Notes under the pieces: model-generated | Databases searched by the model: none | What the model saw: only the letters and a program-made list of their open reading frames with translations | What the model was told of the DNA's origin: nothing | Translations under genes and position numbers: made by a program | Assembly: GCF_024223415.1 (NCBI RefSeq) | Contig: NZ_CP100500.1 | Source: Escherichia coli | GTDB taxonomy: Bacteria; Pseudomonadota; Gammaproteobacteria; Enterobacterales; Enterobacteriaceae | DNA length: 64,000 nt | Direction: 5' to 3' (one strand) | Shown here: positions 59,789-62,160 of the stretch, piece after piece | Layout: the number at the start of each line of letters is the position of its first letter | Position numbering within the stretch: position 1 is the stretch's first letter

Positions 59789-60534
59789 AACTGATAAAAA
59801 AACCCCTCTGAAAATTCTGTCAGAGGGGGGCAAGGATCTATATTTATTATGCAGTAATGCTTTCACTCCGGTAATTAATTTCCGTGATTAACTGCTTTCG
59901 ATCAATAAAGGAATTGCAAAAAGGTGATCTTGTTCACGACATCGTGGATGATAATATGCCTGATGTCTGAATCCGGAAACAGTGATCTGGCGGGTTTCAT
60001 GTGAAGTTGACGGATAAAAAAATCCGCACGACCAGACAGACGTGCGGTTTACGAAATTCGTAACAAGAGGCTTTTCTACGGATCACGTGGTGCGTGCCAC
60101 GTGAAATTTTTGTAGCGCAAAATGTGTAATGTGTAAATACAAGGAAGGAAAAAGTTAAATCGGTGGAAGTCCATGCCTGCCACATGTATGTCTGCATTCC
60201 TCGTTTTGAACAGAATTCTCACCAGACATCGTGAATTTCTCATTCAATCATCAGAGATATTAACCAGGATTTTTATTGTTTTGTGATATCAGCAGTGCAG
60301 GTATACAGACATTAAAGTAATCAGGTTTATTATAACCACCTTTACAAAGTTGTATGTGTTTATAATTTAAGGATTTTAATCCCAGTCGTTTTCTGCTGCT
60401 TAAATTGAGGGCGCATATTATACACAATAATATTCCTGGCATTATTAAATTAATAAAAGAGGATTCTTATCACTGTATTTTTGCTCCGCACTACCGTTCT
60501 GGCTGGTGAAGTAATAATACAGGAGAATAACAGA

Positions 60535-61644
60535 ATGCTTAAAAGACGTGATGCTTTTTTAAAGAAAAGCGCGCTGGCAGTGAGTGTGGCCCTGCTGCTC
60601 TCATCTCAGGCTTCGGCTCATAAAACAATTACTGATTCAACGGCGGGTATTATCTGGATTGATGGTGGCGGTCAGTCACTTGAAAAAGTAGCTGTGATTG
60701 ACCGTCAACTAAATGATACAGGATATAATTTTGCCGTAGGTAGTGGTGCAGCAATTCTGGATGCGGATAAATCCATGGCAACAGGAAATAATACAGCTGT
60801 TTTTAATGCAGACAACAGTGTCGCTCTGGGGTATGGCTCTCAGGTGAATGGAGAAAGCAATGTACTTTCTGTAGGGGCCGGTCCTTCAGGATATGGATTT
60901 TCAGTTGATGGTGCACCGGAAACCCGCCGGATTATAAATGTTTCAGATGGTGTTAAGGATAGTGATGCGGCCACAAAAGGACAGATGGACAACGCCATTG
61001 CAGATGCTGTACGGGAGTCGGGGGATGCCCTGCGCGGTGAGATAGGAGCTGTCTACCGTGATGCTGTTGCTGATGCTAAGAGTCGAGTGGAATCGGCAGA
61101 AAACAGACTTAACGGTAATATTACAGCTGCCAGGGCTTCTGCGCAGGAATACACGGATGCGGTGAAGTCGGATGTTCTGGACGAGACGCGTACATATACA
61201 GACAGCAGTGTGCGTACTGTCCGTAACGAGGTGAAAAGCCAGGCAGAACATCTCAGCGATGTGCTTGTGAAGAACAGGGCGCAGACGGATGCAGCAATAG
61301 CCTCAAATACAGCAGCGATAAGGAATAACAGTCATCGTCTGGATTTGACGGAAGCCTGGCAGAAGATGGCGACAGAGAGAATGAATAATATGCAGGAGCA
61401 GATTAAAGAGAACCGGAAGGAGTTAAGGGAGAGTGCAGCCCAGAGCGCGGCACTGGCCGGTCTTTTCCAGCCATACAGTGTTGGAAAATTTAACGCGACA
61501 GCAGCCGTTGGTGGTTACCGTGATGAGCAGGCCATTGCGGTGGGCGTGGGCTACCGTTTCACAGAGAATGTGGCAGGAAAAGTTGCAGTTGCTGCAGGTG
61601 GGTCATCCGCATCGTGGAATGCTGGTGTGAATTTTGAGTTCTGA
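60535..61644 (+). CDS. YadA-like trimeric autotransporter adhesin (Eib-like candidate)
   Basis: Signal peptide MLKRRDAFLKKSALAVSVALLLSSQASA, neck-like ETRRIINVSDGVKDSDAATKGQMDNA, coiled-coil stalk, C-terminal YadA-type anchor ...GVGYRFTENVAGKVAVAAGGSSASWNAGVNFEF. Confidence 0.7.
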   Translation: MLKRRDAFLKKSALAVSVALLLSSQASAHKTITDSTAGIIWIDGGGQSLEKVAVIDRQLNDTGYNFAVGSGAAILDADKSMATGNNTAVFNADNSVALGYGSQVNGESNVLSVGAGPSGYGFSVDGAPETRRIINVSDGVKDSDAATKGQMDNAIADAVRESGDALRGEIGAVYRDAVADAKSRVESAENRLNGNITAARASAQEYTDAVKSDVLDETRTYTDSSVRTVRNEVKSQAEHLSDVLVKNRAQTDAAIASNTAAIRNNSHRLDLTEAWQKMATERMNNMQEQIKENRKELRESAAQSAALAGLFQPYSVGKFNATAAVGGYRDEQAIAVGVGYRFTENVAGKVAVAAGGSSASWNAGVNFEF

Positions 61645-61704
61645 CAGGTCAGGATTTAGATATCTGTCCCGGGGGAGTCCCCCGGGATATAATGAGGTAC
61701 AGAG

Positions 61705-62160
61705 ATGCTGGATATAATCCTGGCGACGAGAGATATTTATTTTGAAAAAGCCCTGCGAGAGATATTTGGAACCGTAAGCAGTCGAATCAGATATATAGAA
61801 GATGCCATATCAGACAGAAGAAGGGTGCAGTCAGGCAGGTCATTCAGATATTATTTTGTATTCTGTGATGATGAGTATACAGATATTGTTCGTATTCTTT
61901 TTACCGGAGAGGCCTGCTGTATTCTGAATAAGTCGATGCTGAATCTGAGAGCGGCCGGAGGTGTGTTGACGCTGGAAGAGCGCAGAGCGGTACTGAACCG
62001 GTATTACAGAGGTTTAAGTATTGCGGAGATTACAGAAGAGACGGGGCAGAATGACAAGACGGTATACGGTCATCTTCGTCGTGCACTGCAGCGGTCTGGA
62101 TTCCGGAAGGGGCGTTTTATAAAGGGGAGAGAAGCTGCGGGGGATTCAGGTGTTGAATAA
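61705..62160 (+). CDS. putative HTH transcriptional regulator (sigma-70 region-4/LuxR-like)
   Basis: C-terminal HTH-like LTLEERRAVLNRYYRGLSIAEITEETGQNDKTVYGHLRRALQ. Confidence 0.45.
   Translation: MLDIILATRDIYFEKALREIFGTVSSRIRYIEDAISDRRRVQSGRSFRYYFVFCDDEYTDIVRILFTGEACCILNKSMLNLRAAGGVLTLEERRAVLNRYYRGLSIAEITEETGQNDKTVYGHLRRALQRSGFRKGRFIKGREAAGDSGVE

What the first reader, a model, noticed from the sequence alone, without database searches (positions are those of the whole stretch)
59789..62160. Distal cargo locus: YadA-like trimeric autotransporter adhesin with its own regulator
Downstream of the tail fibre genes there is a ~750-bp AT-rich noncoding spacer, then a 369-aa protein with signal peptide, neck-like motif, coiled-coil stalk and canonical YadA-type C-terminal anchor. 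That architecture matches the prophage-borne immunoglobulin-binding Eib proteins. It is followed by a 151-aa HTH protein and a convergent DinI-like gene. This looks like a lysogenic-conversion (virulence/adhesion) module.
Basis: partly seen in the sequence, partly recalled or inferred. Interest (0 to 1): 0.5.

Follow-up and report, generated by a model that had tools for sequence, protein, structure and literature searches.

The report
Prophage-borne YadA-type adhesin cassette
At the far end of an E. coli lambda-like prophage sits an intact gene for a small three-stranded surface adhesin, followed by a tiny DNA-binding protein; it is a relative of the known prophage "Eib" antibody-binding adhesin loci but belongs to a different, uncharacterised branch, so it is a fairly ordinary cargo gene rather than something new in kind.

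Summary
After the tail-fibre genes there is a 746-bp AT-rich, ORF-free spacer (59789-60534). It is followed by an intact 369-aa trimeric autotransporter (60535-61644), a 151-aa HTH protein (61705-62160) and a convergent DinI-like gene (62544-62792). The prophage (17747-63026) is inserted in mlrA/yehV.

Gene order matches the original P-EibA/C/D/E loci: orf-191, spacer with hairpins, TAA, hairpin, small ORF, dinI. However, the protein is only 38% identical to EibC/D. It matches EibA only over the C-terminal 118 residues (57%). It lacks the Eib N-terminal domain and the saddle, and the mapped IgG-Fc segment is about 24% identical with an ambiguous alignment. It is therefore a positional homologue of Eib from a separate lineage, and antibody binding is not supported.

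ORF151 has a LuxR/sigma-region-4 type HTH and is confined to E. coli and Salmonella. It occurs in 183 of 5426 complete E. coli genomes at ≥99% nucleotide identity. In 163 of these it is fused to the same anchor-coding 3' end, while the passengers vary. That it regulates the adjacent promoter is unproven. A prophage at the same att site has identical ORF151 but unrelated upstream DNA.

Verdict: a new member of a known kind, of modest interest.

The parts
59213..59788 (+). ORF191, a DUF4376 tail-fibre-associated protein. It is the last gene of the tail module and the left flank of the cargo locus. It is 59% identical to ORF-191C of prophage P-EibC.
   Evidence: annotated as DUF4376 in relatives
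59789..60534 (+). AT-rich non-coding spacer, 746 bp, GC 0.377. The proximal part carries hairpins. The distal 335 bp (GC 0.33) is the presumed promoter region of the adhesin gene.
   Evidence: no Rfam hit; promoter-like hexamers at 60306-60333 are no more frequent than in shuffles
59803..59828 (.). 9-bp GC-rich hairpin directly after the ORF191 stop codon, with an A-run before it and a T-run on the minus strand. It looks like a bidirectional terminator.
   Evidence: -18.7 kcal/mol
60024..60047 (+). Hairpin CCGCACG...CGTGCGG followed by TTTAC; terminator-like.
   Evidence: read from the sequence; folded
60083..60104 (+). 9-bp hairpin followed by AATTTTTGTA; intrinsic-terminator-like.
   Evidence: 7 terminator-like sites found against 2.2 expected in the region
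60535..61644 (+). Trimeric autotransporter adhesin gene, 369 aa. Domains: signal peptide aa 1-28 (cleavage after SQASA); about four 15-residue YadA-type head repeats aa ~63-122; neck aa ~129-158; coiled-coil stalk aa ~143-310 with a single copy of a 33-residue repeat (starting at aa 163); YadA anchor aa 311-369.
   Evidence: 99.2% identical to WP_000920000.1 of E. coli SMS-3-5
61667..61687 (+). Perfect 9-bp GC hairpin (TCCCGGGGG-AGT-CCCCCGGGA) between the adhesin stop codon and ORF151. It has no U-tract. It occupies the position where the Eib loci carry a canonical terminator.
   Evidence: also conserved in strain B771
61705..62160 (+). ORF151, a small protein with a C-terminal LuxR/GerE or sigma-70 region-4 type HTH (aa ~87-130). 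A possible degenerate receiver-like alpha/beta N-terminal half is present. It has no sigma region 2.
62272..62367 (+). Unannotated 31-codon ORF encoding a single hydrophobic helix (MKITKAAFIFALSVWSVAVICLLLFVLVVLG). It lies inside the DNA block shared with the SMS-3-5 island. It may be the positional counterpart of the small membrane protein ORF-60 of the Eib loci, but it shows no sequence similarity to it.
62544..62792 (-). DinI-like gene, convergent. It belongs to the lambdoid prophage backbone: it is shared with Stx phages that lack the adhesin cassette.
63007..63026 (.). attR core, a 20 nt sequence identical to 17747-17766 (attL). The prophage splits mlrA (yehV) after codon 22.
   Evidence: Stx1 phage VT1-Sakai uses the same site; btsS lies next to it

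Best explanation
This is a lysogenic-conversion ('moron') cassette at the right end of a 45-kb lambdoid prophage inserted in mlrA.

**The adhesin.** The cassette encodes an intact, short, YadA-architecture trimeric autotransporter adhesin. It belongs to a lineage that shares the locus and the membrane-proximal end of the Eib proteins but not their Ig-binding passenger.

**Proposed mechanism.**
- Shown: terminator-like hairpins lie just after the tail genes, between the late operon and the cassette. That they insulate it is inferred.
- Inferred: the adhesin gene is transcribed from a promoter in the AT-rich 300 bp upstream, probably in the lysogen.
- From family knowledge: the precursor is exported by Sec (signal peptide, cleavage after residue 28). 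Three C-terminal four-strand segments then form a 12-strand barrel through which the passenger passes.
- The surface structure would be a small four-turn beta-roll head on a neck and a stalk of about 165 residues.
- Inferred: it mediates adhesion, autoaggregation and perhaps serum resistance.

**Variation among relatives.** Stalk length differs between relatives by 1-4 copies of a 33-residue repeat, and the window carries the one-copy form.

**ORF151.** It is a LuxR/sigma-4-type DNA-binding protein, a distant positional homologue of Eib-locus ORF-156. It is most likely expressed by read-through across the U-less hairpin and acts as a transcription factor coupled to adhesin expression. Its target is unknown.
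For: **Domain evidence.** Pfam YadA_anchor E 2.2e-16 and neck motif E 4.5e-4. YadA anchor 2LME E 1.2e-17. NCBIfam YadA model E 3.5e-23 over aa 67-368. Four 15-residue NSVAxG-type repeats can be read in the sequence. Predicted helices span 143-217 and 223-310, followed by four strands.

**Synteny with Eib-type loci.** The order matches P-EibA/C/D/E and the isolated phages PhiR12_2 and PhiR12_3. ORF191 is 59% identical to ORF-191C, and the anchor end is 57% identical to EibA.

**Insulation.** There are 7 terminator-like sites against 2.2 expected, three of them in the proximal spacer.

**Portability.** The block 59709-62379 recurs at 97% identity in an IS-rich island of SMS-3-5 and in APEC O78.

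**Linkage.**
- ORF151 is in 183 of 5426 genomes at ≥99% identity, and is contiguous with the same anchor end in 163.
- The C-terminal 120 aa are 99-100% identical in 120 cluster representatives, whose lengths track the repeat copy number.

**ORF151 as a DNA-binding protein.**
- Sigma70_r4_2 matches at E 4e-7.
- A joint profile with ORF-156 hits GerE at E 2.8e-4.
- hhalign against ORF-156 gives E 9.4e-5 and is collinear over 122 columns.
Against: - There is no expression data of any kind. The promoter scan found no more sites than in shuffled sequence.
- Eib genes are known to be poorly expressed without extra activators, and an AT-rich upstream region is a typical H-NS target (background knowledge).
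- The monomer AlphaFold model of the adhesin is poor (pLDDT 44.7). The absence of a saddle therefore rests on secondary structure and alignment only.
- The ORF151 model is also weak (pLDDT 60.6), and the Foldseek matches to FixJ/RcsB are marginal (E ≥1.4e-3, TM about 0.3).
- Homology between ORF151 and ORF-156 is only probable (58.7%).
- The Ch1 prophage has identical ORF151 but unrelated upstream DNA, with no shared word of 10 nt or more. This argues against a specific operator in this spacer.
Confidence: 0.8

Rival explanations
1. It is a genuine Eib protein: a non-immune IgG/IgA Fc receptor.
For: - It occupies the same prophage locus as eibA/C/D/E.
- Several close relatives are named 'immunoglobulin-binding protein' by their sources.
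- One optimal alignment to EibA places window D252-A253-A254 on EibA D268-A269-A270, the counterpart of the Asp whose mutation abolishes Fc binding in EibG (preprint 10.64898/2025.12.25.695649).
Against: - Identity is 38% to EibC/D, and only the last 118 residues align to EibA.
- It has no significant match to either EibD crystal chain: 2XQH does not appear at all, and 2XZR scores only E 0.21.
- The Eib N-terminal domain and the saddle are absent.
- Against EibD/E the optimal alignment deletes DRIDYAVGAI, and about 6 of 25 positions of the Fc segment are identical, by a manual count on the ungapped alignment (mostly core N/I/S positions).
- The source names are similarity-based.
- Related non-Eib lineages (Cla) were shown to lack Fc binding.
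Confidence: 0.15
2. ORF151 is not the regulator of the adjacent adhesin promoter. It would instead be an adhesin-coupled regulator of other genes, in the way PapX or EcpR/MatA tie adhesin expression to motility. Alternatively it may have a non-regulatory role.
For: - The conserved unit is the anchor 3' end, the hairpin and ORF151, not the promoter.
- Strain Ch1 has identical ORF151 behind a different head and unrelated upstream DNA, with no shared motif.
- The intercistronic hairpin lacks a U-tract, which favours read-through.
Against: - No target is known.
- A weak 22-nt direct repeat (77% identity; exact 10-mer TTGTGATATC) lies both upstream of the adhesin gene (60269-60290) and just after ORF151 (62160-62181). 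It could be an operator, but two-copy repeats of this size are often chance.
- The analogy to PapX/EcpR comes from background knowledge, not from a test.
Confidence: 0.4
3. The cassette is intact but transcriptionally silent in this lysogen: a carried relic rather than an active conversion module.
For: - The upstream DNA is very AT-rich (GC 0.33).
- No above-chance promoter match was found.
- The same cassette is frequently decayed elsewhere: it is truncated by a sul2-strAB-tet(A) insertion, interrupted by IS elements, or annotated as partial.
Against: - The reading frame is intact.
- ORF151 and the anchor module are held at ≥99% identity across 183 genomes and up to 6 copies per genome. This suggests either recent spread or purifying selection.
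Confidence: 0.25
4. The surface protein serves the phage rather than host colonisation. It might act in superinfection exclusion by masking receptors or causing aggregation, or as a virion-associated fibre.
For: - Its position next to the tail-fibre genes.
- PHROG families matched by the protein include two labelled 'tail' or 'adhesin'.
- Some Salmonella phages annotate YadA-like proteins as tail fibres.
Against: - A Sec signal peptide and a YadA membrane anchor place it in the bacterial outer membrane, not in a virion.
- Terminator-like hairpins lie between it and the late operon.
- The same cassette persists in non-prophage islands.
Confidence: 0.07

Closest known systems
Prophage eib loci of E. 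coli ECOR-9 (P-EibA/C/D/E; AF151091, AF151674-AF151676) and Eib-type loci of the isolated phages PhiR12_2 and PhiR12_3
   Same: - Gene order is the same: tail fibre, orf-191, spacer with stem-loop, trimeric autotransporter, stem-loop, 150-aa-class ORF, then dinI at the prophage end.
- ORF191 is 57-59% identical.
- The anchor and last part of the stalk are 57% identical to EibA.
- The partner ORF is collinear with ORF-156, sharing the motifs ILATR..Y.E..L and LT..E...YR...E.G..KTV.
   Different: - The passenger is 38% identical or not alignable.
- There is no Eib N-terminal domain and no saddle, and the segment carrying the IgG-Fc residues is 10 residues shorter.
- The partner ORF is only 22% identical. 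ORF-156 has no Pfam hit at all, whereas ORF151 hits sigma region 4.
- There is no ORF-60 and no eaa autotransporter.
- The hairpin after the gene lacks the U-run that the Eib terminators have.
Yersinia YadA
   Same: The overall lollipop architecture is the same: signal peptide, left-handed beta-roll head repeats, neck, coiled-coil stalk and four-strand anchor. The anchor aligns at E 1.2e-17.
   Different: - Identity is 27-28%.
- The NCBIfam YadA model scores 82 bits against a 750-bit cut-off.
- The head is much shorter, at about 4 repeats.
- The gene is prophage-borne, not on the pYV plasmid.
- There is no evidence for collagen binding.
Cla and Yal lineages of 'EibG-like' adhesins in LEE-negative STEC (Kotaka et al., bioRxiv 10.64898/2025.12.25.695649)
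   Same: These are described as Eib-related trimeric adhesins that lack the Eib N-terminal domain. Yal also lacks the saddle. The Cla proteins do not bind IgG Fc. The window protein fits the description of Yal.
   Different: The anchor region of one of their strains (JNEC-KY176) matches the window at only 81% nucleotide identity.
LuxR/GerE-type and NarL/FixJ-type regulators and ECF sigma region 4 (comparison for ORF151)
   Same: - The HTH matches Sigma70_r4_2 at E 4e-7 and GerE at E 2.8e-4.
- The predicted topology is beta-alpha repeats followed by a three-helix HTH.
- The top Foldseek hits are FixJ, RcsB, EvgA and VpsT.
   Different: - It has only 151 aa, with no sigma region 2, so it is not a sigma factor.
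- There is no Pfam receiver match, and the usual acidic pocket at the end of strand 1 is TRD/TRN.
- No full-length relative below 50% identity was found among 1.84 billion representatives.
eYadA of APEC strain TW-XM (PMC12955052)
   Same: It is a small YadA-family adhesin studied in avian E. coli.
   Different: It is unrelated: a different chromosomal locus (cueR-ybbJ) and only 22% identity, confined to the anchor.

Membership tests
Trimeric autotransporter adhesins (type Vc secretion) | C-terminal YadA-type membrane anchor (four beta-strands per chain) | tested here: met
   Pfam PF03895 E 2.2e-16 over the full model length, aa 311-369. 2LME E 1.2e-17. Four predicted strands at 319-367.
Trimeric autotransporter adhesins (type Vc secretion) | N-terminal Sec signal peptide | tested here: met
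   Read from the sequence: MLKRRDAFLKKSALAVSVALLLSSQASA|HK has a basic n-region, a hydrophobic core and an A-x-A site. No dedicated predictor was available.
Trimeric autotransporter adhesins (type Vc secretion) | Passenger built of head, neck and coiled-coil stalk | tested here: met
   Neck/YadA_stalk motif E 4.5e-4 at aa 132-158, and YadA_head only E 0.069. Four 15-residue repeats are visible at aa 63-122. Helices span 143-310 (low-confidence model).
Trimeric autotransporter adhesins (type Vc secretion) | Forms an SDS- and heat-resistant trimer in the outer membrane | not testable with these tools
   Needs expression and SDS-PAGE.
Eib immunoglobulin-binding proteins | Prophage locus downstream of orf-191 and followed by an orf-156-type gene | tested here: met
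Eib immunoglobulin-binding proteins | Eib N-terminal domain (present in EibA, EibD and EibG according to PMC12511318) | tested here: not met
   The mature N-terminus has only about 35 residues before the head repeats. Nothing aligns to Eib residues 1-150.
Eib immunoglobulin-binding proteins | Saddle insertion (VGVDSDGKLTRAEGAT...) between right- and left-handed coiled coil | tested here: not met
   The aligned stretch TRTYTDSSVRTVRNEVKSQAEH has no similarity and is predicted helical apart from a 5-residue break at 218-222. The model confidence is low.
Eib immunoglobulin-binding proteins | Conserved IgG-Fc-binding segment (EibD 384-418 with D387/Y388; the equivalent Asp is essential in EibG) | tested here: inconclusive
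   The segment is 10 residues shorter and about 24% identical. The optimal alignment to EibD/E deletes DRIDYAVGAI, while one optimal alignment to EibA keeps a D-A-A match. The 384-418 boundaries are recalled from Leo et al. 2011 and were not read here.
Eib immunoglobulin-binding proteins | Non-immune binding of IgG/IgA Fc | not testable with these tools
   Needs a ligand blot.
Sigma-70 family sigma factors (NCBI name of ORF151: 'sigma factor-like HTH DNA-binding protein') | Region 2 (core binding and -10 recognition) as well as region 4 | tested here: not met
   Only region 4 matches, at aa 87-130. All sigma models score 16-21 bits against cut-offs of 43-222.
LuxR/GerE-type HTH regulators | C-terminal four-helix or three-helix GerE-type HTH | tested here: met
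   The profile of ORF151 plus ORF-156 hits GerE 1FSE at E 2.8e-4. Helices are predicted at 90-101, 106-113 and 117-130. The match is weak.
NarL/FixJ response regulators | Receiver domain with phospho-acceptor pocket | tested here: inconclusive
   There is no Pfam receiver hit. A four-strand beta-alpha N-half appears in a model of pLDDT 60.6. Foldseek to FixJ/RcsB gives E 1.4e-3 and TM 0.3. An Asp is conserved at the end of strand 3 (D55), but there is no acidic pair after strand 1.
DinI | Scores above the NCBIfam equivalog cut-off | tested here: not met
   67.4 bits against a cut-off of 111, so it is 'DinI-like'. PHROG 189 E 2e-26.

The most novel reading that the evidence does not exclude
The invariant block (last ~100 codons of the adhesin, GC hairpin, ORF151 and ~220 bp downstream) may act as a portable recombination scaffold. 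It would let co-resident prophages and islands exchange passenger heads and change stalk length in 33-residue steps. In the same reading, ORF151 is an adhesin-coupled regulator that rewires host surface programmes. The phage would destroy mlrA, the curli activator, and at the same time supply its own adhesin and regulator.
Probability: 0.12. Interest if true: 0.55.

Novelty: new member of a known kind. Interest (0 to 1): 0.3.

Why it matters
It shows that the cargo slot known from the Eib prophages holds at least two cassette lineages. Each pairs a variable trimeric adhesin with a conserved small HTH-type partner gene whose function has never been tested. In an evenly spaced 30-record sample, roughly two-thirds of the isolates carrying this lineage came from poultry. 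If the protein is expressed it is a candidate colonisation factor. Automatic labels of such proteins as 'immunoglobulin-binding' would then be misleading. None of this changes the current understanding of prophage morons or autotransporters.

Tried and rejected
- **Near-identical phage genomes.** Megablast against 50,697 phage records matched only the dinI/att end.
- **PDB sequence search for Eib similarity.** 2XQH does not appear; 2XZR scores only E 0.21. The strong 2XQH hit obtained with alignment A4 is circular, because Eib sequences are in that alignment.
- **Distant relatives of ORF151.** The word-indexed search found 13 proteins, all ≥94% identical. The exhaustive search of 1.84 billion representatives found only fragments of the same protein plus four marginal HTH matches.
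- **Pfam on ORF-156.** Nothing, even at E 10.
- **Rfam on 59000-64000.** Nothing at E ≤1.
- **Monomer AlphaFold of the adhesin.** pLDDT 44.7, used only for secondary structure; no fold search was attempted.
- **eYadA of APEC TW-XM as a possible published name.** Unrelated.
- **Shared operator motif between the window spacer and the Ch1 spacer.** None of 10 nt or more.
- **Flanking repeats that could mark the cassette as a discrete mobile unit.** Only weak two-copy matches.
- **Original Sandt & Hill papers (PMC97405, PMC98814).** Not held. Statements about ORF-156 and the Fc segment therefore rest on the GenBank records, on later papers and on memory.
- **ClaA/ClaB/Yal sequences.** Could not be obtained from the preprint text.
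Full report
**What is there**

The window is E. coli DNA. A 45.3-kb lambdoid prophage lies between a 20-nt direct repeat at 17747-17766 and 63007-63026. It splits mlrA (yehV) after codon 22. This is the same site used by Stx1 phage VT1-Sakai, and btsS follows on the right.

At the right end of the prophage the order on the + strand is:
- J, 53594-57325.
- A 604-aa collagen-repeat tail fibre, 57384-59198.
- ORF191, 59213-59788 (DUF4376; PHROG 'tail fiber protein', E 1.4e-62).
- A 746-bp spacer.
- A 369-aa ORF, 60535-61644.
- A 151-aa ORF, 61705-62160.
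- On the minus strand, a DinI-like gene, 62544-62792.

The spacer has GC 0.377, falling to 0.331 in its last 335 bp, against 0.514 for the window. It has 11-18 stops per forward frame and no Rfam match.

**The adhesin**

- Pfam finds the YadA anchor at E 2.2e-16 (full model, aa 311-369), the neck motif at E 4.5e-4 (aa 132-158) and a marginal head repeat.
- The YadA anchor structure 2LME matches at E 1.2e-17.
- The NCBIfam YadA model aligns to aa 67-368 at E 3.5e-23, but at 82 bits against a cut-off of 750.
- The sequence shows a standard signal peptide ending SQASA|HK.
- Four 15-residue head repeats are visible: YNFAVGSGAAILDAD, KSMATGNNTAVFNAD, NSVALGYGSQVNGES and NVLSVGAGPSGYGFS.
- The neck is RRIINVSDGVKDSDAATKGQMD. 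A long helical region follows.
- The monomer AlphaFold model is poor (pLDDT 44.7), as expected for an obligate trimer. Its secondary structure (helices 143-217 and 223-310, then four strands) agrees with the domain calls.
- An AGGAG lies 9 nt before the ATG.

The gene is intact.

**Relation to Eib**

The phage collection holds the original ECOR-9 records. In all four the order is orf-191, stem-loop, eib, stem-loop, orf-156 (then orf-60 in P-EibA/C/D and eaa in P-EibA/C). In the two longer records (P-EibA, P-EibC) BLASTN finds a dinI homologue at the far end. Two isolated phages, PhiR12_2 and PhiR12_3, show the same arrangement. The window locus is therefore a positional homologue of the eib locus.

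At protein level the relationship is distant:
- 38% identity to EibC/D over about 320 residues.
- 33% identity to EibE.
- 57% identity to EibA, but only over the last 118 residues.
- No significant match to the EibD crystal chains.

The alignment shows no counterpart of the Eib N-terminal domain. It also shows no counterpart of the saddle, which recent work treats as a characteristic Eib feature (PMC12511318; preprint 10.64898/2025.12.25.695649).

The IgG-Fc residues (EibD D387/Y388; the equivalent Asp is essential in EibG) lie in a stretch that is 10 residues shorter in the window protein:
- The best alignments to EibD and EibE delete DRIDYAVGAI.
- One equally good alignment to EibA puts D252-A253-A254 on D268-A269-A270.
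- Over the ungapped part, by my own count about 6 of 25 positions are identical, mostly core N/I/S positions.

I therefore regard Ig binding as unsupported but not excluded. The description fits the 'Yal' group of the preprint (no N-terminal domain, no saddle, function unknown). I could not obtain those sequences to test this.

**The family and its variation**

The protein is 99.2% identical to WP_000920000.1 of strain SMS-3-5. There the block 59709-62379 lies at 97% identity in an IS-rich island beside the aerobactin genes. The block includes the last 80 bp of orf191, which points to a prophage origin.

An APEC O78 strain carries a 452-aa allele plus ORF151 in a different island. In other strains the gene is cut by a sul2-strAB-tet(A) insertion.

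Among 120 cluster representatives the last 120 residues are 99-100% identical to the window protein. Length classes follow the copy number of a 33-residue stalk repeat: about 370-380 aa with one copy, about 415-420 with two and about 452 with three. Strain B771 has four copies and 485 aa.

Breakpoints against relatives fall inside the gene, at about 61085-61278. The Ch1 prophage sits at the same att site and is otherwise 95-99.7% identical. Yet it has a completely different head, and its upstream DNA differs from 59938 onward.

**ORF151**

- Its residues 87-130 match sigma-70 region 4 (E 4e-7), but there is no region 2, so it is not a sigma factor.
- It has essentially no relatives. The indexed search found 13 proteins, all ≥94% identical. 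The exhaustive search of 1.84 billion representatives found nothing full-length.
- It occurs in 183 of 5426 complete E. coli genomes, at 287 places and up to six per genome, at ≥99% nucleotide identity in 182.
- In 163 genomes the same anchor-coding 3' end is directly upstream.
- It is collinear with Eib-locus ORF-156, sharing an N-terminal ILATR..Y.E..L motif and the HTH motif LT..E...YR...E.G..KTV..L (22% identity; hhalign E 9.4e-5, probability 58.7%).
- A joint profile hits GerE at E 2.8e-4.
- A low-confidence model (pLDDT 60.6) has a beta-alpha N-terminal half followed by a three-helix HTH. Its marginal best fold matches are FixJ, RcsB, EvgA and VpsT.

I read ORF151 as a small LuxR/sigma-4-type DNA-binding protein with a degenerate receiver-like half.

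**How it probably works**

Three hairpins lie just after the tail genes, at 59803-59828, 60024-60047 and 60083-60104. The region has 7 terminator-like sites against 2.2 expected. The adhesin gene is thus probably insulated from late transcription and needs its own promoter in the AT-rich DNA. No promoter could be identified above chance.

After the stop codon there is a perfect 9-bp GC hairpin without a U-run (61667-61687). The Eib loci have canonical terminators at that position. Read-through into ORF151 is therefore plausible.

Export, trimerisation and surface display follow from what is established for type Vc autotransporters. Adhesion, aggregation and serum resistance are inferred by analogy.

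The claim that ORF151 regulates the neighbouring promoter is weakened by the Ch1 case: identical ORF151, unrelated upstream DNA and no shared word of 10 nt or more. A regulator that is co-expressed with the adhesin and acts elsewhere is at least as likely.

**Novelty and verdict**

The kind of element has been known since 2000, and diversity among Eib-like adhesins was described in 2025. Genome annotation already calls these genes 'YadA-like family protein' and 'sigma factor-like HTH DNA-binding protein'. The specific lineage and its partner gene are uncharacterised.

This is a new member of a known kind. The finding is real and reasonably interpreted, apart from the implied Ig binding and the assumed local regulatory role.

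Noticed in passing
window 17747-17766 and 63007-63026; mlrA fragments 17083-17730 (-) and 63009-63074 (-): The prophage is inserted in mlrA (yehV), the activator of csgD and curli. The gene is cut after codon 22, with a 20-nt att core duplicated at both ends. The phage therefore removes one adhesion and biofilm regulator while bringing in an adhesin gene.
   Followed up: partly
window 57384-59198: The side tail fibre is largely collagen-like Gly-X-Y repeats ([15 protein letters not shown] and variants), which gives many internal DNA repeats. It matches collagen-like adhesin models (Lcl, Scl) at E about 1e-57, below their cut-offs. Prophage collagen-like proteins of E. coli are described in PMC3368898.
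   Followed up: no
window 62272-62367: An unannotated 31-codon ORF encodes one hydrophobic helix. It lies between ORF151 and dinI, inside the block shared with the SMS-3-5 island. Eib loci have a 57-60-aa single-helix protein (ORF-60) at the corresponding place, but the two show no sequence similarity and there is no family match.
   Followed up: partly
L001 7252-8709 (B771), L009 6286-7644 (APEC O78), window 61021-61119: Stalk length in this adhesin family varies by 1-4 tandem copies of a 33-residue (99-bp) unit, GD(A/S)LRGEIGGVYRDARAHTDSQVTAVRDELKAE. Thirty-three residues is three hendecads, which suits a non-heptad coiled coil.
   Followed up: partly
E. coli genomes holding ORF151: About two-thirds of an evenly spaced sample of 30 ORF151-positive complete genomes come from chickens, other poultry or poultry meat, including named APEC strains. 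The background frequency of poultry isolates in the collection was not computed.
   Followed up: no
L008 5286-5852 (strain WCHEC025985) and many similar records: The promoter region and the first ~85 bp of the adhesin gene (window 60250-60618) occur at 97.6-98.1% identity in many more genomes than the full gene. In the one locus inspected (WCHEC025985) the gene is cut short by a sul2, aph(3'')-Ib, aph(6)-Id, tet(A) resistance insertion and is annotated as a 188-aa hypothetical protein. In some other records the remnant is annotated 'Tat pathway signal sequence protein'.
   Followed up: partly
window 60269-60290 and 62160-62181: A weak direct repeat (77% identity over 22 nt; exact 10-mer TTGTGATATC) lies upstream of the adhesin gene and again just after the ORF151 stop codon. 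It could be chance or a shared protein-binding site.
   Followed up: no
window 33777-34009: A cluster of three tRNA genes (Met-CAT, Arg-TCT, Thr-TGT) lies inside the prophage, at the place where Stx-type lambdoid phages carry tRNAs ahead of late-gene cargo. No toxin-sized ORF follows it.
   Followed up: no
L007 4989-6233 (strain Ch1): A prophage at the same mlrA site, 95-99.7% identical on both sides, carries a 414-aa adhesin. Its head has no YadA-type repeats and its signal peptide is different, but from residue ~215 onward it is the same protein. This is a clean example of passenger swapping within one locus.
   Followed up: partly
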